Source: Escherichia phage EP335. Taken from it: 64,000 bases of DNA. The DNA is taken from sequence record MG748548; one strand, given 5' to 3'. A program made the translations under genes and the position numbers. This document shows, piece after piece, positions 29,086 through 64,000 of this stretch (the stretch's first letter is position 1; every line of letters starts with the position of its first letter). The notes beneath the pieces were generated by a model. The model saw only the letters and a program-made list of their open reading frames with translations. It did not search any database and was not told the DNA's origin.

Positions 29086-29089
29086 CTGA

Positions 29090-30976: not shown

Positions 30977-30978
30977 CA

Positions 30979-34907: not shown

Positions 34908-34921
34908 TCTTATTCCTTATG

Positions 34922-45396: not shown

Positions 45397-46284
45397 TTAC
45401 GCTACCTGTAAACGTTTCAAGAACACATCTGCTTCACGAACATCGTTGGTGTTGATGATCTGGTGCAGCTTTTCAATCGGAAGGCGAGAGTGGAGGCCCA
45501 TCAAGAACTCCATGTCGCTGTTTTGTACAACCTTGTCAACTTGATCATACACAAATTGACGATCTTCTTTCTTGCCAATCCAGAAGTTTGACAGAGAGCG
45601 ATACTCAATGCCATAAGGTTTGTAACGGATTGCGGATGCTTTACCGTATAGCTCTTTACGACGAGCATCACCGTCCATCAGAACAGCAGGCAATGACAGG
45701 AAGTAATCACACAGAACGCCCAGCATCATCTGAACCTTCTTATTCACATCCAGAGAGCCAGTGACACCGATATGCACATGACCGCCTGCTGTACGCAAGC
45801 CCTTGTTCTCTGAAGTTGGGGAAGCATTCTTTTGACCAGTGAATGCGTTGAAGTCTGGAGTACAACCAAACACGAAAGCGGACGGATGGAATGATTCCAA
45901 TTCTTCTTTAGAGAAGATATGAGAACTTACACCCAGAGCCGCTTCCATGTCCTGTTTCTTCAGAACTTCGTTGGTAAGATCAATACCACGCTGAACGTTG
46001 TCATTAAACGCTTCAAAACCTTGTTGTGGGTTGATATCAAATTCAGCAAGAACGTTGTCTTCTTGGAGACGAACATCCTTAGCCAGATCGATTTTATTTT
46101 CTTTAGAACAGCCCAGCTTTCCAGCAACAGAGGTGATGATGCCAGAAGAAGTACGAACAAACATTTCAGGGTCAGTGCCGATTAAAAAGATGCGCTTAGT
46201 CATTGTAGTATTCCACCAATTCTTTAAAGAGGGATGTGATTGTTTCTTTGTTGCTCTCTGTACTAGAGTCACAACGACTTTCAA
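45397..46284 (-). CDS. Second amidoligase-like protein (GCS2-like)
   Basis: IGTDPEMFV and GGHVHIGV in positions analogous to the first amidoligase. Confidence 0.5.
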   Translation of the reverse strand: MKVVVTLVQRATKKQSHPSLKNWWNTTMTKRIFLIGTDPEMFVRTSSGIITSVAGKLGCSKENKIDLAKDVRLQEDNVLAEFDINPQQGFEAFNDNVQRGIDLTNEVLKKQDMEAALGVSSHIFSKEELESFHPSAFVFGCTPDFNAFTGQKNASPTSENKGLRTAGGHVHIGVTGSLDVNKKVQMMLGVLCDYFLSLPAVLMDGDARRKELYGKASAIRYKPYGIEYRSLSNFWIGKKEDRQFVYDQVDKVVQNSDMEFLMGLHSRLPIEKLHQIINTNDVREADVFLKRLQVA

Positions 46285-47125
46285 TACGTTCTAAGAAACC
46301 ATTTACACTGATGTTAGAAATCTTTTCATCAAGAGATGAACGTTTCCAACCAGTGCTCATAGACCAAACTCTCAAAAAGGTACTCATTGAAGAGTACATC
46401 TCTGCGTTTTGGTTTCGACGACGAGCAATACGACGAAGGGCTGCACGGTCATGGTTTCGGATATACCCTGATGTGTTATCACCTTCTCCAACTTTGTTTT
46501 GCAACCAAACATCGGTTGAAAACTCATCTGTATTGCAAATGATCGGAAGAAATGCAAATGCTGGTAAGTCGTGCGGTAAGTAGATAGATGTTGATTCATC
46601 AGTGGAATCATTAACTCTATCAAAGTTAAGCTCCCCAAAGAAATCCTTACTTACCCCAGCAAGAGCTAGAGCTAATCCAACACGACGACGGAATAGCCAT
46701 TCTTCTCTATCATCAACTCCCTCTGAAAGAAAATCCATAGATTCATACTCGCAATCGAGATAACTACGGAAAGTCATTAGTCCTGTAAAAACTTTATCTG
46801 CTGCGTGTTCACGAAGATCAACCTCTACACTATTAGCAGAAGTGATTGTGAACATATCTTTGTACATAGAACAGGAGTTTAGTACATCAGCAGTATCCAA
46901 CAAATGAGACTCAATCTCATCCATGTTGCAGTGAGGCCAGTAGTTAATCTTACCCATGTGTGCTGTGAAGTTATCTAAGCTGGTTCGATTACTCAGGCCA
47001 TTAATATCACGAGTGCTGAAGTTGTGCATAGAGTTGTGGATACCGAAACAGACTCGGCTCGTAAAACTCTGCTCACCCACCATATCACTAACTTCTACAG
47101 GAGCTAATGTTGTGGAAATTGCCAT
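46196..47125 (-). CDS. Hypothetical protein
   Basis: 309-aa ORF; 5' end overlaps the preceding gene, start uncertain. Confidence 0.45.
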   Translation of the reverse strand: MAISTTLAPVEVSDMVGEQSFTSRVCFGIHNSMHNFSTRDINGLSNRTSLDNFTAHMGKINYWPHCNMDEIESHLLDTADVLNSCSMYKDMFTITSANSVEVDLREHAADKVFTGLMTFRSYLDCEYESMDFLSEGVDDREEWLFRRRVGLALALAGVSKDFFGELNFDRVNDSTDESTSIYLPHDLPAFAFLPIICNTDEFSTDVWLQNKVGEGDNTSGYIRNHDRAALRRIARRRNQNAEMYSSMSTFLRVWSMSTGWKRSSLDEKISNISVNGFLERIESRCDSSTESNKETITSLFKELVEYYND

Positions 47126-47137
47126 TGTCTTTAACCT

Positions 47138-48331
47138 TTAATTTCCTAAGAAAAGTTTCGTGAGAATTGAATCCCACTCCGTACTAGGCAGTACATCAAA
47201 ACTGCTATTATTTGACAGATTCGACTGTTGAAAGTGGCGAATCATTGTGTAAGTATTAACACGGTCATTGCCAAATCGAGTATACAACAACTCATTTCGA
47301 GTCTTGTCTGATAGGGAAATAGCTTTGGCAAAAGCTACAATCAGCATAGGCTCTTTGAGGGCACGATCTTGAAGGGCTTCCGGTTGAAGAATAGGTAAGA
47401 ACATTGAGTTGTTTACATACAGCTCATGCTCTTCGTGTCCGGGAACGTCATACCAAACACTCGAATAGTCTTCATCACGGAAATGTCCTTCACCAGCCAT
47501 ATATGACGGTTGACGCCACGCAGTCTGGCGAGGTTCTGCCATATTAGCTCCGATGCCCACTGTGTACAGTGTTACAGGGAACAGGCAGTTATCGTATTCA
47601 TTACCAGTAAAGGCAACTCGTACTTCGCCAAACAGATTCTCTTTTGCGTTAATCAATCGAGAATAGGCAAGAGCTTGTAACGGAGACCAATCGTCCATAA
47701 AGAGCTTATCAAGGAAAGTCCACACATTTGCTTGCTCATCTTCTTGATAAAACAGACGATTAACCATAAGATAGAACAGGCAACGATCAGCAGGCACTGG
47801 TTCAGATACATCTTCTGTTACCACACCCATAAAACCTTTTTCATGCCAAACAAGACATGAAGGACGATCTTTATCCATGAAAGCTTCAAGTGCTTCCATA
47901 ACTGACTTGACAGTTACATCAGGTCGTTCACGATATTCAGCCCAAAGCTCAACTGCGTTCTTAGGCTTTTCATCCCCTACATCAGCGTGATAGAAAGCAT
48001 ATTGGAAGGAGATGATGTTGTTGCTCCCATCCTTTCCACGCATAGGGATATGGGTTCCAGAGTTCCAGATAATACGAATATCTTCCATTGACATTAAACT
48101 GCTTAGGAGTTCATCGCTGCCAGAGCTTTGCATCAAGCTATAGCTGCTATCCCAAACATGGACATACTGCGTCCAGCCTTCATTGGCTTCGTAGGTAATG
48201 GGGTCGTAATAATCACTATCTTCGTCACAATCATCACCACCGTGGTAGTTGCTGTGCTGAAGAAAGCCATAGCAAGGAGGCCAGACTGTTACTACATTGT
48301 CCTGCTTATCCTGCAATGTTACTGGAAACAT
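47138..48331 (-). CDS. Hypothetical protein
   Basis: 397-aa ORF. Confidence 0.5.
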   Translation of the reverse strand: MFPVTLQDKQDNVVTVWPPCYGFLQHSNYHGGDDCDEDSDYYDPITYEANEGWTQYVHVWDSSYSLMQSSGSDELLSSLMSMEDIRIIWNSGTHIPMRGKDGSNNIISFQYAFYHADVGDEKPKNAVELWAEYRERPDVTVKSVMEALEAFMDKDRPSCLVWHEKGFMGVVTEDVSEPVPADRCLFYLMVNRLFYQEDEQANVWTFLDKLFMDDWSPLQALAYSRLINAKENLFGEVRVAFTGNEYDNCLFPVTLYTVGIGANMAEPRQTAWRQPSYMAGEGHFRDEDYSSVWYDVPGHEEHELYVNNSMFLPILQPEALQDRALKEPMLIVAFAKAISLSDKTRNELLYTRFGNDRVNTYTMIRHFQQSNLSNNSSFDVLPSTEWDSILTKLFLGN

Positions 48332-48342
48332 TTTGAAACCTC

Positions 48343-48705
48343 TTATTGTTGTTTGATCAACTCAACGGACTTACGGATGTAAAGAATATCACGGAAGTTA
48401 CGGTAGTTGTTCATGAATTGATGCTTCTGGAACTCCGCTTCAAGCAGAGATTCTTTGGCACTTTCATAACTCTTACGGGCAAGATACACAACCCGCTCTG
48501 GTAATACGTTTGCACGACGGATGATATACTTGTGAGCTTTCATATTGCTCTGCTCACGAGATATCTTACTTTTCGCTACCGTAATGCCATTTGCAAGCCA
48601 AACAAGCTCTTGCTCAAGCTCTTCGTTGGACATTCCACCGAGGTTTGATGCAACCTTGTTCAGAGTTTCAATGTTAACGTTGCCCTTGATGGGACGTGTA
48701 TTCAT
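48343..48705 (-). CDS. Hypothetical protein
   Basis: 120-aa ORF. Confidence 0.45.
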   Translation of the reverse strand: MNTRPIKGNVNIETLNKVASNLGGMSNEELEQELVWLANGITVAKSKISREQSNMKAHKYIIRRANVLPERVVYLARKSYESAKESLLEAEFQKHQFMNNYRNFRDILYIRKSVELIKQQ

Positions 48706-49096
48706 ACCTACTCCTGTTGTTTACACTCACCAATAACCCACTGATAAGAAGTGGATTGACCTGAAAAGAAACACTGAATAAATCCAGACGTTCTCTGCGT
48801 TACCAGTGCTAGTGCACATATCACTACCGCTGCTGCTAGCAGTTTCATATCTAATTTAGACATATTTCCTCTCTTTGAATTTAAAAAAGGACTCTCCGAA
48901 AAGAGCCAAGCTTTAAATACAAAAAGATATTACCCAATATCTGTGGATAACCTGCTCTTAAAATATCTATCCGACGGATGTTCGAGGATTGTTCCTCTCC
49001 CTAGCATCGGCCCCATACGGGAAATATATTAAGATTAGGTTAGTTGAGTCAGAATGACTCACATAGCCCTCCGAAGGGAAGGCTATAAATGTCACT

Positions 49097-49339
49097 CTAT
49101 TTATCCCCACCAAAGGCGAGGTAGGCATCTCTGATTTCAGTAACCTGTGAATCAGGTTTGAATGCAGACAAATGTCCTGTGTTCAGGTTAACTGCGTTGG
49201 CAGGGATGATGCAACCCTCTACTTTAGTATCAGGGATTTTCATGTAGTAACTTGAAAAGTGCTCTGCTGAGAAAACTTCTCCAACAGTGATATCACTAAT
49301 CTTCGCTAGAACATCCTTAGCTGGTTGCCCTATTTTCAT
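49097..49339 (-). CDS. Small-paralog-family protein A
   Basis: Family motif ISDITVGEVF...YYMKI...AVNLNTG shared with ten other small genes. Confidence 0.55.
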   Translation of the reverse strand: MKIGQPAKDVLAKISDITVGEVFSAEHFSSYYMKIPDTKVEGCIIPANAVNLNTGHLSAFKPDSQVTEIRDAYLAFGGDK

Positions 49340-49572
49340 TACTCACCTTTCTTAGCACGGTCTTTGGCAGTTTTACCAGTGCGGATACGATGGGAAACGT
49401 TAACCAGAGTGCCACCTTCAATAATGGTAACGCTCTTGTTCTTGGCAATGTCAAACACAGACTTCTCTGTGCCACCCAAGCGAATCTGCTTAGGCTCGCT
49501 GAAGGTTTGAGTGGACTTGGATTGGATGTTGAACGGCTGACGGATTGCATCGATTGCGCTTACTTTACTCAT
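49339..49572 (-). CDS. Hypothetical basic protein
   Basis: Internal ATG at 49572 with AGGAG upstream; alternative-frame ORF 49317..49550 considered less likely. Confidence 0.4.
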   Translation of the reverse strand: MSKVSAIDAIRQPFNIQSKSTQTFSEPKQIRLGGTEKSVFDIAKNKSVTIIEGGTLVNVSHRIRTGKTAKDRAKKGE

Positions 49573-49805
49573 AGGGGAATAGCTCCTAAAAATCATGACT
49601 GCGCAGAGGGAATTCCCTACGCAAAAACGACGCTAAAAGAAGCGTCACAGTAGTTGAAAAGAGGTACAGAAACAGGGGTTATTTAGCTACCTTTTTCTGA
49701 CCGTTTACGAACCAGATAATTGAACCGTCAGGCTGTCGTTGACCGAAGCCTTTCATGGTTAGCATGTCTTCCGAAAACTCTTTAAAAGTAATCACTTACT
49801 TACCC

Positions 49806-50051
49806 TTACATTGGAGTTAATATAATCTCTGCTTTGGCATACTTAACACCGACTTCAAGATTGTCAGCAACAGGACGAGGTTTGCCTGTACCCAAATTAA
49901 CTGCTCTGCGATATCCTCCGGATACAGTCATCATCAAATAGATGGTGCTGCTGTCATCTTCTTTTAAAGTGAAGATATCAGCGGTTGACAGATCTTTAAC
50001 AAAGAGTTTCTTTTCTTCTTCGTGACGAACCTTGATATGTATTGTGCTCAT
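49806..50051 (-). CDS. Small-paralog-family protein B
   Basis: VKDLSTADIF...YLMMTV...AVNLGTG. Confidence 0.5.
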   Translation of the reverse strand: MSTIHIKVRHEEEKKLFVKDLSTADIFTLKEDDSSTIYLMMTVSGGYRRAVNLGTGKPRPVADNLEVGVKYAKAEIILTPM

Positions 50052-50053
50052 AC

Positions 50054-50305
50054 CTACTCCTGAACCACGGACATACGAATCATTTCTACCGGAGTGTCAC
50101 CCTTCATAACACCCAGCACGCCAGTCAGAAGGTTAACTGTAGTAATCCAGTCTTTTTCTACAGAGATTTTGCTGGATACATTGGCAACACGCATATGATA
50201 CTGAGGTGATGCTGAACCTCGCTGAATTACGAAAGGGTTTCCGGGGATGATAGTATCCAGTGGATAAGTGTTATCTTTAACCTTGGGGATAATTTTCATT
50301 AGCAA
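50054..50305 (-). CDS. Small-paralog-family protein C (divergent)
   Basis: PLDTIIPGNPF...YHMRV...TVNLLTG. Confidence 0.45.
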   Translation of the reverse strand: MLMKIIPKVKDNTYPLDTIIPGNPFVIQRGSASPQYHMRVANVSSKISVEKDWITTVNLLTGVLGVMKGDTPVEMIRMSVVQE

Positions 50306-50568
50306 CCACTCACTAAAAGTTCAGCTGATACAGGGACAACATGGCACGTAGAATCTGGTGCTGTTACCAATCCATCACACAGACGAAGGGCTAAGGTACG
50401 TCCACTTTTTACGGACACATTAGGAGTATTGTGAACAAAGCCTTTAACATAGAGGGTGTCGCTGTCTGGGTGCTTGAACACCGCTCCATTTTCTAAGGAC
50501 TCGAGTCGGACACGATCTGTTCTGTTGGTAATTTTCACATTAACCCTTAACAACCTTAGCTTCAACAT
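50299..50568 (-). CDS. Small-paralog-family protein D
   Basis: LESLENGAVF...LYVKG...NVSVKSG. Confidence 0.5.
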   Translation of the reverse strand: MLKLRLLRVNVKITNRTDRVRLESLENGAVFKHPDSDTLYVKGFVHNTPNVSVKSGRTLALRLCDGLVTAPDSTCHVVPVSAELLVSGC

Positions 50569-50785
50569 TGACAGGATAAACCTTCATGCCATCAACAGGG
50601 GCACTCAGTTCGCCATTTTCCAGTTTAACACACACAATACGACCGAGAGGTGGCTCAATCCAAGACGTCTTATCTGTTGTACATACCATGTGAATAGGTC
50701 CACATGACTCTTTTCTGAAGGTGTCTCCGCTTTTTAACTCGGACAGCTTTACAGTTTTAGTAGGACTAACATCATTAACTTTCAT
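50540..50785 (-). CDS. Small-paralog-family protein E
   Basis: Internal start MKVNDV...; LSELKSGDTF...IHMVCT...VKLENG. Confidence 0.5.
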   Translation of the reverse strand: MKVNDVSPTKTVKLSELKSGDTFRKESCGPIHMVCTTDKTSWIEPPLGRIVCVKLENGELSAPVDGMKVYPVNVEAKVVKG

Positions 50786-50786
50786 A

Positions 50787-51017
50787 TTATTTACCCTGAA
50801 TAATAAGTTTAGACTCGAACATCTCAACAGTATTGGATTGAGGGACTGGATAGAAAATTTCTTTGGAGTTCTGAACACCCATTGCAGAGTGGTCTCCTAT
50901 TTTCATCCAGAACTTAGGGGCTATGCTGTCACCAGTAAAACGGAAAACATCTCCATTCTCTAAGTCAGAGAAGGTCTTGGAGGGTTCTTTGCTTTTTGGT
51001 ACTTGCTCAAAGTTCAT
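50787..51017 (-). CDS. Small-paralog-family protein F
   Basis: FSDLENGDVF...FWMKI...GVQNSKE. Confidence 0.55.
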   Translation of the reverse strand: MNFEQVPKSKEPSKTFSDLENGDVFRFTGDSIAPKFWMKIGDHSAMGVQNSKEIFYPVPQSNTVEMFESKLIIQGK

Positions 51018-51025
51018 CTTGATTC

Positions 51026-51349
51026 CTATTTAAGTTTAAGGCTGATATTAAGGTGCATACACGCCCTGTTCTGTACAGCGGCATAACTTCTACCGAGCAT
51101 GTCTGCCATTCTCTGAATAGGCATGAATCCAGCATTACGAATAACAAACTGATCTTCTTCTTCCGTCCACTTGACACGTAGAGTAGCTCTGGAAATTTTG
51201 AATTTAGTACAAGCTGTGTTAACAGCATTCTCTGTAACATTCATAATCAAAGCTATCTCAGGGATAGAGTATTCTTTGATCAACCGTCTAAGATTCTCGA
51301 TTTGCATCGGAGTCCATATGGTTCTTCTGGCTTTCATCTCACCACCCAT
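51026..51349 (-). CDS. DNA-binding protein with two Myb/SANT-like helix-turn-helix repeats
   Basis: Two ~45-aa repeats each beginning W-T and containing a basic recognition-helix-like segment. Confidence 0.45.
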   Translation of the reverse strand: MGGEMKARRTIWTPMQIENLRRLIKEYSIPEIALIMNVTENAVNTACTKFKISRATLRVKWTEEEDQFVIRNAGFMPIQRMADMLGRSYAAVQNRACMHLNISLKLK

Positions 51350-51560
51350 GTCTACTTTTAACTAGGATGCCATCAATTATTAGATAGTGGGAATGGTTAA
51401 TCATATCCGAAGACAAATCTCCGTGAGAGCTATTCCATTTAAGGAAGTTCATATTTTCCCAATCGGTGTAGTGCTTCTTGGCCTCTTCCTCTACCTGACT
51501 AAGAGTTACCCTTCTGAAAGGATAAGGACTGTACTTGATAAGCATTTCACATTTTGTCAT
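51339..51560 (-). CDS. Hypothetical protein
   Basis: Internal ATG with GGAGGA RBS; the track start at 51641 lies in a hairpin. Confidence 0.4.
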   Translation of the reverse strand: MTKCEMLIKYSPYPFRRVTLSQVEEEAKKHYTDWENMNFLKWNSSHGDLSSDMINHSHYLIIDGILVKSRHGW

Positions 51561-51989
51561 ACATCCTCCAATTAAACATTTATGTAAGACTTGCTTAGAT
51601 AAAGATTCAATAAAATAGGGGGAGGGGACGAATCCTCCCATATCCTATTAATTAATTTTGCATGTAAGATCTAACAATCGGCTGCCTTTGTAGGATAAGC
51701 GTTATGCTTTTCCAGCACTAAACTCCCGCCCCCTTAGTGGGCTGGGTTATTAAAGGGTAACGCCCTTGTAGGCTAGTTACGTGAATGTTAGTTTGATAGG
51801 AGATCTGAAGTCCTATCTCAAAGGACTCTCGTAAGAATCCTTCACGATATTACTTATTCATTTTTCGTCGGCTATCTCTCCAAGCCAACCAAGTGTAGGT
51901 TTTCAACTCTTCAAAATCTTCTGGAGAGAATAGATATTCTTTGAAGGTGTCACCAAACCACTCTAAAAACTCTTTAGTCATAAATACCC

Positions 51990-52238
51990 CTACTCCTTTT
52001 TAGGGAGAATGAAACCCCACAGCCCTGCCCACAAGCAAAGGGATATAAACATCACAGCAACAATGGGCCATAGAAAAACCATAATTGCTATCTTTGATAG
52101 GTTTGGTTCGTTACCCCATCCTCTGAACTCGACACTACCTTTTACGTCAAGGATTTTTATCAGGGCTGAAGATAACACCATACCTATCAGATAAACGATT
52201 AACACACTAACAAGACTCATCGCAAGGTTGGTCTCCAC
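51990..52238 (-). CDS. Small membrane protein (two TM segments)
   Basis: Two hydrophobic helices; start uncertain. Confidence 0.4.
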   Translation of the reverse strand: METNLAMSLVSVLIVYLIGMVLSSALIKILDVKGSVEFRGWGNEPNLSKIAIMVFLWPIVAVMFISLCLWAGLWGFILPKKE

Positions 52239-52389
52239 ATGTTTTACAAATCACTGGCGAATAACTACAGGCAGGATATACTGACACACCATCCCACGTC
52301 TCACATCCACAGTCAGGGCATTCACCGTTGGATTCCATGTCATCATCGTCACACACTTCACCGCCACCATAACAGCTCATGTGAACTCC

Positions 52390-52611
52390 TTAGTAAACTA
52401 AACCTACAACCTTTGCATCAGGCTGAGGTACTACTTGTGCATTAGGGCGATAACCATCTACTGAACCATTCCAAATATTGATGCAGGTTATATACCCGTC
52501 ATTTACAGTATCTGTTTTAATCCAGAAATGTTTATCGTGCCCAAAAACATCCCCGTTAGAGAGGGAGGACAGTTCAACAGTTTTAAGGCACTGTTTAGAA
52601 TTCAGTTTCAT
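52390..52611 (-). CDS. Small-paralog-family protein G
   Basis: LSSLSNGDVF...FWIKT...CINIWNG. Confidence 0.55.
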   Translation of the reverse strand: MKLNSKQCLKTVELSSLSNGDVFGHDKHFWIKTDTVNDGYITCINIWNGSVDGYRPNAQVVPQPDAKVVGLVY

Positions 52612-52623
52612 GATAACCTCTGA

Positions 52624-52845
52624 TTAATAAGTGACACCAGTTAATGTAGCTTCAGGCATATGGACCACTTTAACTCCTGCTGCGAACCCATCCATATCAC
52701 CGTTGTGCAGGTTGACTGCTTTATAGTAACCGGACAAGAAACTAGAGGTCTTTACCCAAAAGCCATTATTCCATTTGAATACAGACCCACCTTTGAGAGT
52801 GGAAATCTCAACTGTAGTCTCACTGTTTGTTGCATCAATAATCAT
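52624..52845 (-). CDS. Small-paralog-family protein H
   Basis: ISTLKGGSVF...FWVKT...AVNLHNG; internal start assumed. Confidence 0.5.
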   Translation of the reverse strand: MIIDATNSETTVEISTLKGGSVFKWNNGFWVKTSSFLSGYYKAVNLHNGDMDGFAAGVKVVHMPEATLTGVTY

Positions 52846-53080
52846 AATCAGTGTTCCAATGTTCGTAGTTAATATGACTTCTAGGACGACCATACATAAT
52901 GAAGTGGGTCTTATTAATCCTTTCTTTCAAGGTATAATAAAGATCGCTATCGAAATTACCAATCTTTACTTGCCATCTAAGAGAGCGGGCATCCATTCGA
53001 AGCATTGATATCATCTGATTATGACTCTGACTACTCATTGCTTCCAGAAGCTTCTTCGTATTCCAATAATGAGTTGTCAT
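52835..53080 (-). CDS. Hypothetical protein
   Basis: 81-aa ORF. Confidence 0.4.
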   Translation of the reverse strand: MTTHYWNTKKLLEAMSSQSHNQMISMLRMDARSLRWQVKIGNFDSDLYYTLKERINKTHFIMYGRPRSHINYEHWNTDYDY

Positions 53081-53081
53081 A

Positions 53082-53369
53082 TTACCACTCCTTACCAGAT
53101 GTTGTTACAGAACCACTGCACCACTGTGCATTCGACAGTGTTTTAGTTTCTTCATCAACAGATGCACCATTAAGGCAAGAGATTCCATTATAGCGCATAT
53201 CAATCTCACCACTAGGAACCTTGTTCCCTGAATGCCAGCGAGATACGCACACACCTTCAACAGACACTGCACACCATCCATCAGGACGGCTCTGTACACA
53301 GCCTGTAAGGACCACACAAGCGATGAAGATACAGATTAAGGATATTACACCACCCCAACTCATAGGCAC
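53082..53369 (-). CDS. Cys-rich lipoprotein
   Basis: Signal peptide with lipobox VLTGC and five further Cys in the mature part. Confidence 0.5.
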   Translation of the reverse strand: MPMSWGGVISLICIFIACVVLTGCVQSRPDGWCAVSVEGVCVSRWHSGNKVPSGEIDMRYNGISCLNGASVDEETKTLSNAQWCSGSVTTSGKEW

Positions 53370-53503
53370 CTCCTAATTAAAGTGGTGGACTATCTGGAAT
53401 CGAACCAGAAGCTCACTAAGAAAGCAATTCCCACTGTTATAAAAGCACTTGCCTCAACAGGGATACACTAACTTTGGTGCCGTACCCATACTAGCCCTAA
53501 ATG

Positions 53504-53579
53504 TGGTGCGCCCTACAGGATTCGAACCTGTAACCAATAGCTTAGAAGGCTACTGCTCTATCCGTTGAGCTAAGAGCGC
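53504..53579 (-). tRNA. tRNA-Arg (anticodon UCU), CCA encoded
   Basis: Reverse complement folds as a canonical cloverleaf: acceptor GCGCTCT/AGGGCGC, D-arm GCTC-AACGGATA-GAGC, anticodon arm GTAGC-CTTCTAA-GCTAT, T-arm ACAGG-TTCGAAT-CCTGT, then A-CCA. Confidence 0.9.
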
Positions 53580-53938
53580 AGAATTATTTAAATCATGTCA
53601 CGCTTGGTAACATGACCACACACTTTACACTGCATAACATAGCGAAGACCTTTGTGCTTTGTCTCACCGTAATCGTCAGTAATCCTCAGTGTATATTTTT
53701 CAAGGATTACCCAATCATGCAGATGCACAAGACGTTTAAACCATTTGAACATAGTCAGGAACCTTTAACAGAAAAGGATATAGCTTCATTTAGAGAACGA
53801 AACCGTCCAACATACTGACCTGCGGCAGAAGTTACAACAAACCACTGACCTACAAAAGAGATTCCAGCAATCCGTCGGTTGTCATCATCAGCTACTCTCC
53901 AGTAGTCTTTATGAATTTGTTTTACTTTCACATCAACC

Positions 53939-54190
53939 TCAAGCACATGCAGGGAGTGTAACGATCTCAGGTTTACCTTCGAACTCTTCAAACAAACCCA
54001 AGAACGTCGGGCTATACGTACCAGTACAAACAAACTCATCAAAGAGTTCATTGTACGAAGGCTTAATCTTCCAAGCCCACACATAGCCCATCTTATCAAT
54101 CGCAATGTGACGAGTGTTCAGAGGAACAGCCATCATCACATCACCTACTGCAATAACTTTGGTTATCGGTGCAGCTTGGAAGTTTTTCAT
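53939..54190 (-). CDS. Hypothetical protein (possible distant member of the small-paralog family)
   Basis: 83-aa ORF; VIAVGDVMM...YVWAWKIK loosely resembles the family motif. Confidence 0.4.
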   Translation of the reverse strand: MKNFQAAPITKVIAVGDVMMAVPLNTRHIAIDKMGYVWAWKIKPSYNELFDEFVCTGTYSPTFLGLFEEFEGKPEIVTLPACA

Positions 54191-54362
54191 ACTTTACCTT
54201 TGATTCGCACGTTGTTGATGTAACAGGAAGGACAAGGACGAACAACTTCCCCGCCTTCTTTGATTATCTTAATCTCACTACGAGTGATATTCACACGAGC
54301 ACCACAACAAGGAGAATTAACGTAAGAGTAACCAGATTGGGTATGTTTGATGATTTGCTTGT

Positions 54363-54626
54363 TCATATTACACCTCTTTCGGAGATTTCAGCAACAAACC
54401 AGACTTGTGGAGTGTGTTGATAAACTTCATACGACTTGACTACGGATAAGCAGTATTCTAAGAAACCTTTCACAAGAATTGTTGTTTTCTCTACAGGGAT
54501 TTCTGAAATGTCAACACCAAAGATTTCCATAACAACCTCACCCTTTTGGATGATGCGAACATTCATATCAGTACCTCTTGTTAGTTTAAGTAAGAGTTGG
54601 CCCTTAATTAAAACAACAAAGGCCAC
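54363..54626 (-). CDS. Hypothetical protein
   Basis: 87-aa track ORF; start uncertain. Confidence 0.35.
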   Translation of the reverse strand: MAFVVLIKGQLLLKLTRGTDMNVRIIQKGEVVMEIFGVDISEIPVEKTTILVKGFLEYCLSVVKSYEVYQHTPQVWFVAEISERGVI

Positions 54627-54639
54627 CCGAAGGTAGCCT
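54605..54639 (-). terminator. Rho-independent terminator (AGGCUACC-UUCG-GGUGGCCU then U-run)
   Basis: 8-bp stem, UUCG tetraloop, then UUUGUUGUUUUAAUU on the - strand just downstream of the stop at 54647. Confidence 0.65.
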
Positions 54640-54646
54640 TATTTGA

Positions 54647-54868
54647 TCAGTTTTGCTTTAAGCCGAGCAGTCTGTTCTGTAAGAACTCATCCTCTGCATT
54701 GTACAGGAAAGCGAACAACAACTCTTTAGCCATATCTCGTGAGCAGTTAAGGCACTTAGAGATTTGAGTCAGTTGGAGATTTCGATCATCGTGTTCAACT
54801 ACAGCAATGCGAATGATCTCTCGCATACCGAACACATGAGTTGACTTAGCCGCCATAAGACCAATCAC
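54647..54868 (-). CDS. Hypothetical protein
   Basis: 73-aa ORF followed by a strong terminator. Confidence 0.45.
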   Translation of the reverse strand: MIGLMAAKSTHVFGMREIIRIAVVEHDDRNLQLTQISKCLNCSRDMAKELLFAFLYNAEDEFLQNRLLGLKQN

Positions 54869-55344
54869 CTTGACGTTTACGGATGTTACCAGTCAGACGC
54901 AGCATGGCAGACTCAATCTTCAGAGCACCATTTGCTACTGCATCCATACGCTCAGGACGGTTCATACGCTTGGTTGACTTCTTCATAACGTTCTCTCTTT
55001 GTTAGTGGAGGCATTATTGCCAGTTGATATAAGGGATAGCCCTAGTCAGGAGGCTAATTCTGACCGCGTACTCATTGCCGACCTTCTCTGCCTAAGAGTT
55101 CAGGTTCTAGAGCTATCTCTTATTCCAACTGGTGAAGACCTCCTACCCCTAGGAGATCTCCCAAATCCCAAACCAATACGTACCCCTACGTAGTGGAAAG
55201 TCTACCGAAATTGAACAGGTTTTAGTCTAACACCGGATGTTCGAGCAAGCTCTCCCTAGCGGTGCGGCATATGCCTGATTGATATATTTAATGAGGAACA
55301 CCCTCACATAGCCCTCTGATAAACACAAGGGCTATAAGTCGGTG

Positions 55345-55563
55345 TTACTTTTGGGATAAACACAGATCAGGACGTGGCATAACAGTGGTTGATAGACCGA
55401 AGACTTCAACAGAACCGCTGTTCAGATCGGCGGCCTTACACAAACCATCAGGAGTTTTATCTTCTAACATCAGCCAGAAACGTCTATCGTAAGAGAAAAC
55501 ATCACCACCTTTAACATCTTCTGCATTTGCATATTTAGGATAATCCACTACTTTAATTTCCAT
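55345..55563 (-). CDS. Small-paralog-family protein I
   Basis: AEDVKGGDVF...FWLML...AADLNSG. Confidence 0.55.
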   Translation of the reverse strand: MEIKVVDYPKYANAEDVKGGDVFSYDRRFWLMLEDKTPDGLCKAADLNSGSVEVFGLSTTVMPRPDLCLSQK

Positions 55564-55818
55564 CTACTTACCTTTATTAGTAACTACTGCATCAGGAATA
55601 AGGACTACAGGAATATCTGAAGCGAGCTTCATGACCTGATTGATGTTTAAATTGATCACCACACAACCCGCACTAGGCTTAACTTCGGCTACGTGTGGAG
55701 TGAAGAGTTGAACAACCATGTAATAACTTATACCGGTGTTTTTAACTTGGAACACATCGCCTAGTTTCAGATCACTCAACTTAAGTTCTGGATTCTTCCA
55801 CTCAAGATCAATCTTCAT
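55564..55818 (-). CDS. Small-paralog-family protein J
   Basis: LSDLKLGDVF...YYMVV...VINLNIN. Confidence 0.55.
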   Translation of the reverse strand: MKIDLEWKNPELKLSDLKLGDVFQVKNTGISYYMVVQLFTPHVAEVKPSAGCVVINLNINQVMKLASDIPVVLIPDAVVTNKGK

Positions 55819-56065
55819 CTTTAACCTCTATATTGGTTATGTGGAGATCATTGCGCACTTGGCAGATTTCATTTCTACTGATAGCGACAAGCACCCCTGA
55901 TACTACACTAACACAGTTTACGTGATAGTCAGTTGTTGAACCTGTTCTGATAAAAAGTTTATCTCGGAAAGAAAATAAAACCCCTGGCTTCATATTGCCC
56001 AAACGGAGTATCGTACCATCAGATTTAATATTAACCTTCACTGTTGATCTCCTGTTGCTTGGCAA
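55808..56065 (-). CDS. Small-paralog-family protein K (divergent)
   Basis: ILRLGNMKPGVLF...LFIRTG...VSVVSG. Confidence 0.45.
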   Translation of the reverse strand: MPSNRRSTVKVNIKSDGTILRLGNMKPGVLFSFRDKLFIRTGSTTDYHVNCVSVVSGVLVAISRNEICQVRNDLHITNIEVKDED

Positions 56066-56336
56066 TAGCTACTCGCAAGTCTTCATTAGCACGAGCAAGG
56101 CGTTTAACTTCATGATCAAGGCTGATAAGGCGCTTATTTCTATCTTCAACCTGTTCAACCAGATCAAAAAGCTCAACTCTCACCTTTTCTGTATACATCT
56201 CCTCTACTTTAACCAGACTGTTATAGCGACGTTCCCAGCTGGCTGCTTTATTGCGTAGCATAATAAAACCTAACACAGCAACAGTTAACAGCAATACAAG
56301 TAAGAATTTATATACTTCAATACTCATCTTATTCAC
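56031..56336 (-). CDS. Membrane-anchored coiled-coil protein
   Basis: N-terminal TM FLLVLLLTVAVLGFIM followed by a charged heptad region. Confidence 0.45.
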   Translation of the reverse strand: MNKMSIEVYKFLLVLLLTVAVLGFIMLRNKAASWERRYNSLVKVEEMYTEKVRVELFDLVEQVEDRNKRLISLDHEVKRLARANEDLRVAIAKQQEINSEG

Positions 56337-56525
56337 CTTTAAAGTAAGTTATTATAAGAAATATTATTTAGAATTATTATTTTCTAAACATAATTTCTAT
56401 AATCTTTTTCAGAGGTCTATATACAGTCATTACCCCTAGTTCCAAATTGCTTCCACTTTTCAGCGACTATTTTCTAAGTGGTTGGTTTATAAGGGAATTT
56501 AGTTTGTCAATTCTGGCACCTATGA

Positions 56526-56912
56526 TTATTCATGAGCATCATTATTGAACACTAAATCACCACAATACATCGGATTGGTATACCACTTTGGCACCCCCTC
56601 GCTCTTACTCTGAAAGTAGGTTCCACTATACAGAGGAACATAATTCTTCTTGAGAGCACGTCTAGCAAGCTGTTCGCTTTCCCTTATGGCTTGTTTAGTC
56701 ATAGGATTATCATCACGAATCAACTTTACATAACGCTTAAAAGGTTTCTCCTTTCTAAGTAATACAGGAATCCACTCAAACTGGTTCTTTTGTCTTATCA
56801 CCTGTTCAGCGGTCAGTTTTCGTTGTGACATTCTGTTTATTACGGTATCCGCAACTAGTGCTTTACATGCGGTTGGCTGATTCCCTGCCTCATAATAAAT
56901 AGTCAATGTCAA
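56526..56912 (-). CDS. Cell-wall hydrolase (SleB-like, Hydrolase_2 family)
   Basis: TIYYEAGNQP...ACKALVADTVINRM resembles the SleB-type motif AR.IYAEARGE...AVA.VVLNRV. Confidence 0.55.
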   Translation of the reverse strand: MTLTIYYEAGNQPTACKALVADTVINRMSQRKLTAEQVIRQKNQFEWIPVLLRKEKPFKRYVKLIRDDNPMTKQAIRESEQLARRALKKNYVPLYSGTYFQSKSEGVPKWYTNPMYCGDLVFNNDAHE

Positions 56913-57301
56913 AAGTAGCTGGGCCGTTGTTATCAGAACTTACTACCCCCTATTCTATGGGTACAAAAAAGCCCCAGCCGTAGCCGGGGCAAACCTGAAA
57001 GCAATACATGACTATTGCAGTAAATGCACTCGTAAATGCGCTTACGGCAACGACAAAAGCCGCTCAAAGGCGGCTATGTGGAAGCTTCAAATGGGGAGAG
57101 GGCACGACGCTACAGAAAGAGCGTCATAGTACTAAAAAGAGAGGCTATTGGAGAGGTTACTTATTGCCTTCCTTAATGCCTTGTTTTCTTGTTTAACCAA
57201 TTCGTTTTCTTCTTGCAAGGATGCTACCAGATGGACCAGAACATCAACTACTGCATCACCTTGCCGCATCTCTCTGACTTTATTTAGAATCTCTGAATAA
57301 A

Positions 57302-57745
57302 TCATTTTACCCTCGCCTCTTTGATGGGGTCAATGTATTTTTCAACTCCCCATTTGTGTTTACTATCTGCGTAGAAAACATCAGGTGCACACTGGCTTGT
57401 CTTAGGAAAGGCTTGCGGGTCTTTTGTGCTACCTTTAAACTTCTGCTTACCGCGAGTGCGACCGTTACAAAAGATTTCTAACTTCTTCTCGTCTTCTGTT
57501 TTAGCGCCCCCGCTCTGTAACAAAGAACGCTTATGATCAGCTAACAGCAAGGCATCAGCACGATGGGTACGATGGCCTACACGCTTAGGCACACTAGAAG
57601 GAATATGAGATTCAGCTTCAGCCTTTGCAGCACGACGTTTTAAACTACGCTTGCTGACGTGATTGGTTGCTTTTGGTTTCTCTTTTTCCAGTTCAGAGAT
57701 AGAGAAACAGCGCCCGCCCTTCATGCTGATTTTAGATTTAGCCAT
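57302..57745 (-). CDS. Basic protein (function unknown)
   Basis: 147-aa Lys/Arg-rich ORF. Confidence 0.45.
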   Translation of the reverse strand: MAKSKISMKGGRCFSISELEKEKPKATNHVSKRSLKRRAAKAEAESHIPSSVPKRVGHRTHRADALLLADHKRSLLQSGGAKTEDEKKLEIFCNGRTRGKQKFKGSTKDPQAFPKTSQCAPDVFYADSKHKWGVEKYIDPIKEARVK

Positions 57746-58020
57746 TATCTTATTCCTTTCAGTGATAAGTTATATCGGGCAAGCCCATCAAGGTGACAGG
57801 CTTGAACAAACAACTCAATCAAGTAAACTAAATGATTTCCAACTACGCAACAAAACTGTTCCGTCATCCATCGCTACGCTTAACTGTAGTAGCTTCTTAT
57901 TAATACTACTTACCGTTAAAATCCGTCCAGTTGTAGCTTTACCTTTATTACTATAAAGATACACTACACGACGACTCAATAAACGAGATGGCGCTTTCTT
58001 AAATTCAGATATATTAGTTA

Positions 58021-58245
58021 TCATGATGCTTGATACCTTTGAATATGTTCGATACGGGTGGATTGAGCAAAAGACGCTTTAACAGCCATTTCTTTAACTT
58101 CTTCTTTACGCTGATTAGCGTGTACAGTATCCCAATGTTTATGGTCACGACGTCGCTGTAATATCTTACTACATTTGCGATGGTTTCCACTGCTTCGATG
58201 TTTCTCACAAATAGGACACTTACCAAAATTACTACTAAAGATCAT
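58021..58245 (-). CDS. Small Cys/His-rich basic protein
   Basis: CPICEKHRSSGNHRKC...H...H; zinc-binding-like. Confidence 0.4.
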   Translation of the reverse strand: MIFSSNFGKCPICEKHRSSGNHRKCSKILQRRRDHKHWDTVHANQRKEEVKEMAVKASFAQSTRIEHIQRYQAS

Positions 58246-58469
58246 TTTCTCAATCCCAGCTTGCGTAATACACGGCCTAACATTGTTTCTTGTGTTATGG
58301 TGTAGCTAATTGCTTCACGTTCTAGCATCTCAATTTTCATTGGCGACGGATACCATTCACCGGTAAGCATACATTTGCACTCGACACCATATTTTTTAGA
58401 TAGGCGGTAATGTTGACCGTTGCGAAGGTTTCTATAAACCGTGGTATGTGTAGTTAACATAATCGTCAC
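58242..58469 (-). CDS. Hypothetical protein
   Basis: 75-aa ORF coupled to the downstream gene. Confidence 0.4.
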   Translation of the reverse strand: MTIMLTTHTTVYRNLRNGQHYRLSKKYGVECKCMLTGEWYPSPMKIEMLEREAISYTITQETMLGRVLRKLGLRK

Positions 58470-58569
58470 CTTTGATTAGATTCTTTGATTAGCACACTGA
58501 ATCAATGCACTGATAAAAGAAAAGGCGCTACCCGTTAAGATAGCGCCTTATGTTGTTTATATTGTGGTG

Positions 58570-59481
58570 TTATGCTGCATTTTGACGTGCTGCCATAATC
58601 TCAGCCGCTTTCCGCAAGATCTCTTCTTGCTCAGCCGCCGCCGCTTGTTCTGTACGGATTGCAACCGTTGAAGAGATACGACCGCGCAGATTATCTAACT
58701 TCTCCTGCATTTTTGTGATGGTTGATTCCATTTCATCGGCATAAGAATCCAGTGATTCCAATTCCTTGCTTGATGCGTTCATCAAGTAGTCATCAGAGAT
58801 CGCTACGGTTGAAGCCGTTACTTTCTTAATCAGTGAATCGAAGGACTTCTTAACCTTGCCCACTTCTTCACTAAGGGCAATAGTGTTATCACTGGTAGCG
58901 CCGTTACGTTCATCAGCCAATAATTTGGCTTCAATACGGATTGCATTTAAGCGTTCTACCAGATTGTAAATATCCTGATTAAAATCTTCTTTAACTTTCG
59001 CCGGGATTTGCAGGTGTGCCGCTACGTTATCGTTACAACCTTTGAAGAAGTTAGGATTATCTACTTCGATTTCATCACCTTTGGCGAATTTTTCGAAAGA
59101 GTTAGACCAACGAGCGCGGTTTTGTTCCATTTTCGCCTTAATTTGCGCTTCTTTCGCATCTTCTTTCGCTTTCGCTTCACCTTCCAGATTAATCCACTTT
59201 TTACGACCATTTGCCGCATCAGTGTTATATTTGATAGGAGTTAAGAAAGTAATTGCAGTGGCGATCACATCCATATCGCGGAAACGTTCGGTTAACAGGA
59301 AGTCAACCGCCGCCTGCAATACGTCCAACTTCTTACCGTTGCTACGGAAGTGCTGCAAATGTCCTAACAGGAAGTTAGAAACATCTTGTTTGATCGCCGC
59401 GTTGTTGCTACGAATGTTGTTAGCCAGTGCATTAAAACCAGATTCGTTAACCAGATTAAAGATTTTAGCCATGATATTCAC
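58570..59481 (-). CDS. Hypothetical protein (first gene leftward of the long non-coding region)
   Basis: 303-aa helical, Ala/Lys/Glu-rich ORF; its 5' third (GCCGCCGCCGC) is more GC-rich than the surroundings. Confidence 0.5.
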   Translation of the reverse strand: MNIMAKIFNLVNESGFNALANNIRSNNAAIKQDVSNFLLGHLQHFRSNGKKLDVLQAAVDFLLTERFRDMDVIATAITFLTPIKYNTDAANGRKKWINLEGEAKAKEDAKEAQIKAKMEQNRARWSNSFEKFAKGDEIEVDNPNFFKGCNDNVAAHLQIPAKVKEDFNQDIYNLVERLNAIRIEAKLLADERNGATSDNTIALSEEVGKVKKSFDSLIKKVTASTVAISDDYLMNASSKELESLDSYADEMESTITKMQEKLDNLRGRISSTVAIRTEQAAAAEQEEILRKAAEIMAARQNAA

Positions 59482-60391: not shown

Positions 60392-60420
60392 ATTATGAAT
60401 CATGTTGTTTTAGCTGTCAA
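60392..60420 (-). promoter_or_regulatory. Sigma-70-like promoter candidate (TTGACA-17 bp-CATAAT) directing leftward transcription
   Basis: Reverse complement of 60415-60420 is TTGACA and of 60392-60397 is CATAAT, with exactly 17 bp between. Confidence 0.4.
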
Positions 60421-61725: not shown

Positions 61726-61807
61726 CTATAGTTAGAGAATGTAAGAATAAAGCATATCAGCGACGAATAACGCCACTGTAGCAACGAACAAGCAACGCCA
61801 AAAATAA

Positions 61808-63977: not shown

Positions 63978-64000
63978 ATCTAGTTAAAGTGTTTAGACGG

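What the first reader, a model, noticed from the sequence alone, without database searches (positions are those of the whole stretch)
48955..49095. Conserved ~130-bp non-coding element, copy 1 (downstream of paralog A)
The intergenic sequence after gene A contains GGATGTTCGAG...CTCTCCCTAGC...CGGC...CACATAGCCCT(loop)GGCTATAA, and the same blocks in the same order recur after gene I (55228-55345), 6.2 kb away. The terminal hairpin keeps its stem (ATAGCC/GGCTAT) but changes its loop between copies, the pattern expected for a structured RNA or a conserved terminator/processing site rather than chance similarity.
Basis: seen in the sequence. Interest (0 to 1): 0.6.

Follow-up and report, generated by a model that had tools for sequence, protein, structure and literature searches.

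The report
Conserved structured RNA in phage early operon
Two copies of a roughly 115-base RNA that folds into four hairpins sit between early genes of this phiEco32-like coliphage; the RNA recurs in related Salmonella, Klebsiella and Citrobacter phages, matches no catalogued RNA family, and probably controls whether host RNA polymerase reads through the terminator that follows it.

Summary
The window is a Kuravirus (phiEco32-like) genome whose early genes lie on the minus strand. Both copies (48971-49087 and 55230-55335, minus strand) start at the stop codon of paralogous small genes.

Read on the minus strand, each copy folds into four hairpins, H1 to H4. H4 carries an almost invariant 7x7 internal loop, CUAGGGA/GAACAUC.

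- **Structure:** across 41 distinct homologues, 96% of the proposed pairs hold and 15 of 25 pairs show compensatory changes. Recurrent U.G pairs, and the mostly stronger folding of that strand, favour the minus strand.
- **Distribution:** Kuravirus and Suseptimavirus have two copies. Moazamivirus (7-11) has one. Divergent versions occur in Citrovirus phages and one metagenomic phage.
- **Known families:** it matches nothing in Rfam, HK022 put, or lambda boxA/boxB.
it is the 5' hairpin of the RNA and has no U-tract, so it is not a terminator. The real intrinsic terminator lies about 65 nt downstream of copy 1 (48883-48907), directly before the next gene.

My best reading, at about 0.35 confidence, is a cis-acting termination-control RNA that works like nut or put and lets early transcription continue. 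Rivals are a stable processed RNA, an mRNA processing and stability cassette, and an attenuator.

The parts
48971..49087 (-). Copy 1 core, four hairpins H1 to H4. H1 is 49062-49087. H2 is 49045-49061. An A/U-rich linker spans 49023-49044. H3 is 49011-49022 (UCCC GUAU GGGG). H4 is 48971-49010.
   Evidence: Single-sequence folding, RNAalifold, pair counts, covariance model hit at 128.8 bits.
48977..49004 (-). Conserved 7x7 internal loop of H4 in copy 1. The 5' side is CUAGGGA (48998-49004) and the 3' side is GAACAUC (48977-48983). They flank the inner hairpin GAGGA-ACAA-UCCUC (48984-48997).
   Evidence: Invariant in all Kuravirus, Suseptimavirus and Moazamivirus copies and in L165, except for one correlated position pair: A..G 23, C..A 16, A..A 2, C..G 0 of 41 distinct sequences.
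48948..49042 (-). Long-range helix of copy 1. UAACCU (49037-49042) plus UCUUAA (49029-49034) pair with UUAAGA (48956-48961) plus AGGUUA (48948-48953). This encloses H3 and H4 in a three-way junction.
   Evidence: RNAalifold. 95.8% of cells are paired, against 36-60% when the partners are slid. Three pairs show compensatory change between Kuravirus and Moazamivirus. Support is weaker than for the core.
48942..48950 (-). TTATCCACA, the only perfect DnaA-box 9-mer in the window. It overlaps the 3' strand of the long-range helix. The stretch GGUUAUCCACA is conserved in all copy-1 homologues, including the Salmonella phages.
   Evidence: Its meaning, whether RNA pairing or a DNA site, is unresolved.
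48883..48907 (-). Intrinsic terminator: GGCUCUUUUCGGAGAGUC, then C and U6. It ends about 20 nt before the start codon of the next gene (48863), so no promoter fits between them.
   Evidence: Terminator scan. Hairpin energy is -7 to -10 kcal/mol in five homologues. It is annotated as a terminator in 7-11, SU7 and 4E8.
55230..55335 (-). Copy 2 core. H1 is 55308-55335. H2 is 55291-55307. The linker spans 55276-55290. H3 is 55266-55275 (GGC AUAU GCC). H4 is 55230-55265, with loop CUAGGGA (55253-55259) / GAACAUC (55236-55242).
   Evidence: Covariance model hit at 116.9 bits.
55010..55196 (-). 3' extension of copy 2. H5 is 55173-55196 (loop GUAGGGGUAC). H6 is about 55134-55161 (loop CUAGGGGUAG). H7 is a large variable stem, 55035-55117. 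Then come UUAUAUCAAC and the small hairpin GGCAAUAAUGCC (55010-55021), just before the ribosome-binding site.
   Evidence: RNAalifold shows compensatory pairs in H5 and H6. Comparison of nine phages. An analogous 3' hairpin followed by UUAUUAA occurs in Citrovirus.
49097..49339 (-). Gene upstream of copy 1 (80 aa), the last member of an array of at least 10 paralogous small beta-barrel proteins.
   Evidence: phrog_12612 and phrog_6570. Family search within the window.
55345..55563 (-). Gene upstream of copy 2 (72 aa, homologue of phi32_113), a paralogue of the gene upstream of copy 1.
   Evidence: phrog_6570, E = 7.5e-32. The AlphaFold model has pLDDT 88.8 and an SH3/Tudor/KOW-like fold.
54846..54986 (-). 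Gene downstream of copy 2 (46 aa, phi32_112 family, basic N-terminus KKSTKRMNRPER). I treat it as a speculative candidate trans-acting partner.
   Evidence: Present in the Kuravirus, Suseptimavirus and Moazamivirus phages examined, and also in PKM.Hi.22.6, which has only a doubtful element. Not found in the GAP52 locus or the Citrovirus loci. No annotation in any library.
54619..54640 (-). Terminator-like hairpin (AAGGCUACC UUCG GGUGGCCUU, then UGUUGUUUUA), the first one after copy 2 and its two downstream genes.
   Evidence: 4E8 annotates a terminator directly after its phi32_112 homologue.

Best explanation
The two sequences are paralogous copies of a cis-acting structured RNA module. They are transcribed as part of the long early operon, which host sigma-70 RNA polymerase reads on the minus strand.

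Each module folds into four hairpins. The fourth presents an invariant, largely non-Watson-Crick internal loop.

I propose that this fold is a recognition surface that makes the elongating host polymerase resistant to the terminators downstream. It could act alone, as HK022 put RNA does, or with a small phage or host factor, as lambda nut does with N. The first terminator affected would be the intrinsic terminator about 65 nt after copy 1. That terminator separates the hypervariable host-takeover genes from the conserved amidoligase module and everything downstream of it.

Shown: the RNA fold, the strand, the conservation, the position relative to genes and terminators, and the lack of a promoter after the terminator.

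Inferred: that the fold acts on termination, and through what partner.
For: 1. **The fold is real, and the evidence favours the gene-sense strand.** 96.4% of cells are paired, against 83.9% in shuffles and 36-49% with slid partners. 15 of 25 pairs show compensatory change. Recurrent U.G pairs would be A.C mismatches on the other strand. Ten divergent homologues each fold the same way on their own, and nine of them fold more stably in sense than in antisense.

2. **A specific binding surface.** The 7x7 loop is invariant apart from a correlated A..G / C..A switch. That switch arose repeatedly in separate clades and never gives the Watson-Crick C..G.

3. **Copy 1 is always followed by an intrinsic terminator that abuts the next ribosome-binding site.** This holds in Kuravirus, Suseptimavirus and Moazamivirus.

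4. **Genes downstream must depend on read-through.** Published work places the mapped early promoters far upstream: the 120/121 spacer in phiEco32 and SU10 (PMC4281155), and only upstream of gene 151 in 7-11 (PMC8948821).

5. **Element and terminator go together.** Both are missing upstream of the endolysin homologue in PKM.Hi.22.6 and GAP52.

6. **The layout mirrors lambda.** Upstream gene, copy 1, terminator, next genes resembles cro-nutR-tR1-cII. Copy 2, long structured leader, small basic protein, terminator resembles nutL-N-tL1. The comparison with lambda rests on my own knowledge.

7. **Two diverged copies with conserved structure per genome**, as with putL and putR (PMC9378689).
Against: - No experiment bears on function.
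- The covariance model finds nothing significant in the HK022 immunity region. No boxA or boxB is present. So it is not a member of either known family.
- Strong terminator-like hairpins at 58522-58549 and 56971-56990 lie upstream of copy 2, so they cannot be handled by it.
- put and nut sites lie close to promoters. These copies lie kilobases downstream of the mapped early promoters.
- A constitutive antiterminator placed next to a terminator has no obvious net purpose unless a factor makes it conditional. The only candidate, the phi32_112 family, is unannotated, is not next to the element in 7-11, and was not found in Citrovirus.
- The tail of copy 1 is conserved in sequence right up to the terminator. 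That fits a discrete RNA molecule at least as well.
Confidence: 0.35

Rival explanations
1. Copy 1 is the body of a discrete, stable non-coding RNA of about 205 nt. It would be derived from the 3' UTR: the 5' end made by processing after the upstream gene, and the 3' end made by the intrinsic terminator. It would act in trans, either as a base-pairing sRNA using the conserved single-stranded UAUCCACAG or as a protein decoy using the H4 loop. Copy 2 would be a second, differently tailed version.
For: The whole stretch from stop codon to terminator is conserved between Kuravirus and the Salmonella phages at about 70% identity. That includes the terminator stem, its A/U flanks and GGUUAUCCACAG. 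The compact three-way junction plus terminator resembles many stable RNAs. Element and terminator are lost together in PKM.Hi.22.6 and GAP52.
Against: Copy 2 and the Citrovirus versions lack a canonical terminator and run into a ribosome-binding site. There is no convincing promoter: the only site is CTGACT-18-TATATT at 9 of 12, inside the element, and it is not conserved in 7-11. The element has no similarity to any E. coli sequence or Rfam sRNA.
Confidence: 0.2
2. The module is an intercistronic processing and stability cassette. RNase E would cut in the A/U-rich single-stranded linker, or RNase III in H4. That leaves H1 and H2 as a 3' protective cap on the upstream message, and H3 and H4 as a 5' protective structure on the downstream one, as the RNase III sites do in the T7 early region.
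For: The module starts within about 10 nt of a stop codon. H1 is a very stable GC-rich hairpin without a U-tract. The linker is 15-28 nt, A/U-rich and flanked by hairpins. The module also marks a mosaic boundary: many phages align only up to window 49097-49103.
Against: It does not explain the invariant 14-nt internal loop or the correlated non-canonical pair. In copy 1 the linker is predicted to be base-paired. H4 offers only about 18 stacked pairs and its length varies between lineages, which makes it a poor RNase III substrate (the RNase III requirement is from my own knowledge).
Confidence: 0.2
3. The module is a sensor, either a riboswitch or a protein-binding operator. It would decide locally, by alternative folding, whether the adjacent terminator (copy 1) or the ribosome-binding-site hairpins (copy 2) form.
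For: The architecture is a three-way junction closed by a long-range helix and followed by a terminator. In Kuravirus, AAGAGC in the 3' strand of that helix is complementary to GCUCUU in the terminator's 5' arm, so it is a possible anti-terminator. The loop is conserved like a binding pocket.
Against: The anti-terminator pairing is not conserved in 7-11 or pSal-SNUABM-01 (reading). The downstream genes are unrelated to one another: a small membrane protein, an endolysin, the phi32_112 protein, and others. No Rfam riboswitch matches.
Confidence: 0.12
4. The conservation acts at the DNA level. The element would be a promoter, a replication origin or DnaA site, or a recombination anchor for shuffling gene cassettes, like the PeSL cassettes of T4-type phages.
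For: A perfect DnaA box lies in the copy 1 tail. A mosaic breakpoint falls exactly at the 5' edge of copy 1. The distance between the two copies varies among the phages.
Against: Compensatory changes and strand-specific U.G pairs point to a folded single strand. There is no gp36 promoter consensus and only a weak sigma-70 match. GC skew shows no feature here. The DnaA box is absent from copy 2 and from Citrovirus.
Confidence: 0.05

Closest known systems
HK022 putL / putR antiterminator RNAs
   Same: Both have two diverged copies per phage genome, placed in the early operons upstream of terminators. Both are multi-hairpin RNAs with essential non-canonical pairs. Both sit in operons transcribed by unmodified host RNA polymerase (PMC9378689; layout).
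   Different: There is no detectable sequence or structure similarity: the model R1 scores at most 14 bits in the HK022 immunity region. This element has about 115 nt and four hairpins, against about 70 nt and two. It lies kilobases from the mapped promoters. Its action on RNA polymerase is untested.
Lambda nutL / nutR sites with N protein
   Same: The gene order matches. A first gene is followed by the site, a terminator and the next genes, as in cro-nutR-tR1. A site is followed by a long structured leader, a small basic protein gene and a terminator, as in nutL-N-tL1.
   Different: There is no boxA and no boxB-type hairpin. The candidate protein, phi32_112, has no detectable relation to N and no annotation. 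In 7-11 its gene is not next to the element.
RNase III processing hairpins between T7 early genes
   Same: Both are conserved intercistronic hairpins with an internal loop, repeated along an early operon read by host polymerase.
   Different: The helices here are much shorter and vary in length. Four hairpins replace one. The loop sequence is conserved to a degree not needed for RNase III. No cleavage data exist.
PeSL (promoter-early stem-loop) cassettes of T4-type phages
   Same: Both are short conserved non-coding cassettes with a stem-loop at the borders of hypervariable early genes, and both coincide with mosaic breakpoints.
   Different: This element has no early promoter. It has only two copies. 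Selection acts on an RNA fold rather than on a promoter and terminator.

Membership tests
   H1 is followed by GUGAG (copies 1 and 2) or UGGAG (7-11). The terminator scan does not report it.
Intrinsic terminator: 48883-48907 | A G+C-rich hairpin immediately followed by a U-tract | tested here: met
   GGCUCUUUUCGGAGAGUC, then CUUUUUU. Reported by the scan. Hairpin energy is -7 to -10 kcal/mol and is conserved in five lineages.
HK022 put RNA | Sequence and structure homology to putL/putR | tested here: not met
   R1 searched with filters off over HK022 27000-36000 gives a best hit of 13.9 bits at a site unrelated to put. Rfam at E <= 10 lists nothing related.
HK022 put RNA | Acts in cis on RNA polymerase (beta' zinc-binding domain) to suppress pausing and termination without protein factors | not testable with these tools
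   This needs transcription assays.
Lambda-type nut site | A boxA (CGCUCUUA / UGCUCUUUAACAA) upstream of a boxB hairpin (5-bp stem with a GNRNA pentaloop) | tested here: not met
   Neither intergenic region has a match, at up to 1 mismatch (8-mer and 11-mer) or 3 mismatches (13-mer). Neither has a boxB-type hairpin.
Lambda-type nut site | A cognate small arginine-rich antiterminator protein | tested here: inconclusive
   The phi32_112 family is small and basic and is encoded next to copy 2. It has no homology or annotation and was not found in the Citrovirus loci.
Any Rfam 15 family (riboswitches, ribozymes, sRNAs, tRNA-like) | A covariance-model score at or near the gathering threshold | tested here: not met
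   At gathering threshold only tRNA-Arg is found in the window. At E <= 10 only terminator-driven noise appears. ARAGORN finds no tRNA or tmRNA here.
Transcriptional riboswitch or attenuator | Conserved, mutually exclusive anti-terminator pairing | tested here: not met
   AAGAGC/GCUCUU is available in Kuravirus only. It is not kept in 7-11 or pSal-SNUABM-01.
RNase III site (T7 type) | About two helical turns of mostly paired RNA | tested here: inconclusive
   H1 has 9-11 bp. H4 has 6-7 plus 3-5 bp around a 7x7 loop, and its total length varies between lineages.
Promoter (sigma-70, or phiEco32 gp36 tAATGTAtA) | A consensus match conserved among homologues | tested here: not met
   The only match is CTGACT-18-TATATT at 9 of 12, inside copy 1, and it is absent in 7-11. 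No gp36 motif lies within either element.

The most novel reading that the evidence does not exclude
A previously unrecognised class of transcription-antitermination RNA operates in virulent podophages (Kuravirus, Suseptimavirus, Moazamivirus, Citrovirus). It would either act alone like put or be read by the 46-aa basic protein encoded next to copy 2. It would set the boundary between immediate-early and delayed-early genes in phages that were thought to rely only on sigma-factor switching.
Probability: 0.3. Interest if true: 0.75.

Novelty: new variant of a known kind. Interest (0 to 1): 0.55.

Why it matters
phiEco32 and 7-11 are model phages for takeover of host transcription through a phage sigma factor and the gp79 protein. 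How host polymerase crosses the intrinsic terminators inside their 25 to 40 kb early operons has not been addressed in the papers I could read.

A conserved RNA fold with strong covariation, placed just before such a terminator, gives a concrete and mutable candidate. If it acts on RNA polymerase, it would be one of the few RNA-based antitermination devices known, and it would come from lytic phages that are used for therapy. Even if it proves to be a stable RNA or a processing cassette, it is a well-supported RNA family for Rfam-type curation that I could not find described, and a useful landmark for annotating and engineering these genomes.

Tried and rejected
- **Rfam:** searched at the gathering threshold and at E <= 10, on the window copies and on two divergent homologues. 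Nothing found.
- **tRNA or tmRNA:** none here.
- **Relaxed loop pattern in IMG/VR:** returned 120 or more chance hits. None has the flanking stems.
- **Host mimicry:** blastn against 5,426 E. coli genomes gave no match.
- **put homology:** none.
- **boxA and boxB:** none.
- **gp36 promoter and sigma-70 promoter:** rejected.
- **Replication origin from GC skew:** no signal.
- **Riboswitch-style anti-terminator:** not conserved beyond Kuravirus.
- **K-turn reading of the H4 loop:** rejected by inspection, because the loop is symmetric 7x7 with no 3-nt bulge next to the tandem G.A pairs.
- **Identity of phi32_112:** Pfam, PHROGs, NCBIfam, PDB sequences and the 5.8-billion-protein search returned only unannotated close relatives.
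- **Primary phiEco32 papers:** the genome and transcription papers (PMC2587145, PMC3275717) are not held, so I could not check whether these intergenic regions were mentioned there.

Full report
**What the window is.** The region is 92-98% identical to Kuravirus phages such as KBNP1711, SU10, NJ01 and phiEco32. In phiEco32 the two copies lie between genes 91/90 and genes 113/112. All genes here are on the minus strand, in the block that the literature assigns to the early class. That class is transcribed by host sigma-70 polymerase from promoters in the 120/121 spacer and upstream of gene 125 (PMC4281155). Everything below is therefore read on the minus strand.

**Checking the observation.**
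- The listed blocks are present at the stated coordinates.
- The composite motif GCTAGGGAGAG...CTCGAACATCC occurs exactly twice in the window and never in 100 shuffles.
- The two intervals align with z = 8.6 against 2000 dinucleotide shuffles.
- The genes that end just before each copy are paralogues, both hitting phrog_6570. They belong to an array of at least ten related small genes between 49.1 and 55.8 kb.

**Anatomy of the core.** Each copy folds into four hairpins.
- H1 is a stable G+C-rich stem that starts about 9 nt after the stop codon.
- H2 follows directly.
- An A/U-rich linker of 15-28 nt comes next.
- H3 is a 3-4 bp stem with a GUAU or AUAU loop.
- H4 abuts H3. It has a 5-7 bp outer stem, a symmetric 7x7 internal loop (CUAGGGA on the 5' side, GAACAUC on the 3' side), and an inner hairpin whose sequence varies.

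**Tails.**
- In copy 1 the linker pairs with sequence after H4 (UAACCU..UCUUAA with UUAAGA..AGGUUA), which closes a three-way junction. After that come the conserved GGUUAUCCACAG, a small A/U hairpin, and an intrinsic terminator at 48883-48907 that ends about 20 nt before the next start codon.
- Copy 2 continues differently. Two hairpins follow that both have a UAGGGGUA apex, then a large variable stem, then UUAUAUCAAC, then a small hairpin, and then the ribosome-binding site of the phi32_112 homologue.

**Evidence that the fold is selected.** I built a covariance model from 22 sequences. I then collected homologues from phage records, IMG/VR, metagenomes and bacterial genome assemblies using an exact loop pattern.
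- On 41 distinct sequences, 96.4% of cells form standard pairs. The figure is 83.9% in column shuffles and 36-49% when the 3' partners are slid by 1-3 columns.
- 15 of 25 pairs show changes on both sides.
- U.G pairs recur at three positions. On the plus strand they would be A.C mismatches, so they favour the minus strand.
- Nine of ten representative sequences fold more stably in sense than in antisense.
- The position pair next to the inner helix is A..G in 23 sequences, C..A in 16, A..A in 2, and never C..G. The search pattern allowed all four combinations.
- That switch occurs separately within Moazamivirus, within Kuravirus copy 1, and between the copy 2 lineages.
- From my own knowledge of base-pair isostericity, A.G, A.A and C.A can replace one another in a sheared (trans Hoogsteen/sugar-edge) pair. 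Together with the neighbouring G.A, this suggests tandem sheared pairs. That is a recollection, not a test.

**Distribution.**
- The model finds exactly two copies in Kuravirus and Suseptimavirus genomes.
- It finds one copy, of the copy 1 type with the same terminator, in the Salmonella phages 7-11, SE131, SeKF_80 and pSal-SNUABM-01.
- It finds none in Cronobacter phage GAP52, and only a doubtful 16-bit hit in PKM.Hi.22.6.
- A contig binned with a Flavobacterium MAG carries a 64-bit hit. Every stem has a different sequence, but the loop is intact. This contig is really a Citrovirus-like phage.
- That led to weaker but significant hits at the equivalent early position in Klebsiella phage Klyazma (36 bits) and Citrobacter phage CVT22 (27 bits). 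The four-hairpin fold is kept there, but the loop has partly diverged.
- The family therefore spans Gordonclarkvirinae, Grimontviridae and Zobellviridae. All of these share the amidoligase / glutamine amidotransferase gene module.

**What it is not.**
- Rfam 15 has no match at any threshold tried.
- There is no tRNA or tmRNA here.
- No E. coli genome has a similar sequence.
- The phage-sigma promoter consensus tAATGTAtA (PMC8948821) is absent. The only sigma-70-like site is weak and is not conserved.
- H1 is not a terminator, because it has no U-tract.
- GC skew gives no hint of a replication origin.

**Reasoning toward a mechanism.**
- The terminator after copy 1 leaves no room for a promoter before the next gene.
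- On the minus strand the next perfect gp36 promoter is about 19 kb further on, at 29441.
- In 7-11 the only validated sigma-70 promoters lie at the far right end of the genome (PMC8948821).
- Host polymerase must therefore read through this terminator to express a large block of early genes.
- Where the element is missing at the homologous junction (PKM.Hi.22.6 and GAP52), the terminator is missing too.
- Two structurally conserved but sequence-diverged copies, each upstream of terminators, recall putL/putR of HK022 (PMC9378689).
- The gene order recalls lambda: cro-nutR-tR1, and nutL-N-tL1. Copy 2 sits in the long leader of a 46-aa basic protein, whose gene is followed by a terminator-like hairpin at 54619-54640.
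- I therefore favour a termination-control element that works like nut or put.

**Why the element is not filed under put or nut.** The model does not detect put, and there is no boxA or boxB.

**Weaknesses of the favoured reading.**
- Strong terminator-like sites lie upstream of copy 2.
- The copies are far from the mapped promoters.
- The candidate protein has no annotation and was not found in Citrovirus.
- The sequence of the copy 1 tail is conserved all the way to the terminator, which suits a discrete RNA equally well.
- For these reasons my confidence is only about 0.35.

**Rivals.**
- A stable RNA of about 205 nt derived from a 3' UTR fits copy 1 well, but fits copy 2 and the Citrovirus versions poorly.
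- A processing and stability cassette fits the position and the A/U linker, but does not explain the invariant loop.
- A local attenuator or riboswitch lacks a conserved alternative pairing.
- DNA-level roles are contradicted by the strand-specific pairing.
- These readings are not fully exclusive. The element also coincides with a mosaic breakpoint: many phages align only up to window 49097-49103.

**Novelty.** I found no description of this element in Rfam or in the accessible papers on phiEco32, SU10, SU7, 7-11 or gp79. The two primary phiEco32 papers were not available. On this evidence it is an undescribed RNA family of a familiar general kind: a structured cis-acting RNA in a phage early operon.

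Noticed in passing
[not shown]
   Followed up: partly
window 48942-48950, minus strand: The only perfect DnaA-box 9-mer (TTATCCACA) in 64 kb. It sits between copy 1 and its terminator, and is conserved as GGTTATCCACA in all copy-1 homologues, including the Salmonella phages. It could be explained by RNA pairing (AGGUUA), or it could be a real DnaA site.
   Followed up: partly
window 55134-55196, minus strand: Two adjacent hairpins after copy 2 both end in a UA-GGGG-UA apex, with UUUGGGAUUUGGGAG between them. The stems covary. A GGGG-containing loop also tops the 3' hairpin in Klyazma and in L165. The same stretch has four G-runs that could form a quadruplex instead.
   Followed up: partly
window 55035-55117, minus strand: The last big stem of the copy 2 leader carries an insertion of about 60 nt in the window, phiEco32, KBNP1711 and 4E8. 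In NJ01 and the SU7-type phages a plain hairpin occupies this position.
   Followed up: no
window 54846-54986, minus strand; L002 6893-7072: The phi32_112 / 7-11 gp135 family is a 46-59 aa protein with a conserved KRMNRP(E/S)(R/K)M(D/E)..NGALK core and a basic N-terminus. It is unannotated everywhere. In 7-11 it is adjacent to a DnaJ-type CxxCxGxG zinc-finger protein that is annotated as 'Q-like'.
   Followed up: partly
L002 7072-7784 (Salmonella phage 7-11, record about 82133-82845): A 712-nt non-coding gap after gp135. It contains two T-arm/acceptor-like ends (GGTTCGAATCC..., GGTTCGACTCC...CCA) and a sub-threshold Rfam hit to permuted tmRNA (29.6 bits against a gathering score of 47). ARAGORN calls nothing there.
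   Followed up: partly
window 46000-64000, minus strand: Terminator-like hairpins are about twice as frequent as expected (27 against 12 +/- 3.5) and lie almost all on the minus strand. Strong ones are at 56971-56990 and 58522-58549. Strong sigma-70-like promoters are at 63008-63035, 60974-61001 and 60392-60420.
   Followed up: no
window 49097-49103: A mosaic breakpoint. At least thirteen of the related phages listed align with the window only up to the stop codon of the gene upstream of copy 1. KBNP1711, XT73 and pEC-N1203-2Af.1 have an insertion of about 220 bp somewhere in the 800-bp query.
   Followed up: no
L018 4200-4460 and 7672-7735 (Salmonella phage PKM.Hi.22.6): A 250-nt intergenic region with hairpin, AACUAAC, GCCC-AUAA-GGGC and ...GGCAUCCG features. 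These loosely resemble the element (16 bits, E = 0.3). Separately, a hairpin followed by AACUAACCU lies directly before the endolysin homologue.
   Followed up: no
window 53504-53579, minus strand: tRNA-Arg (anticodon TCT) between the two copies. It is annotated in related phages.
   Followed up: no
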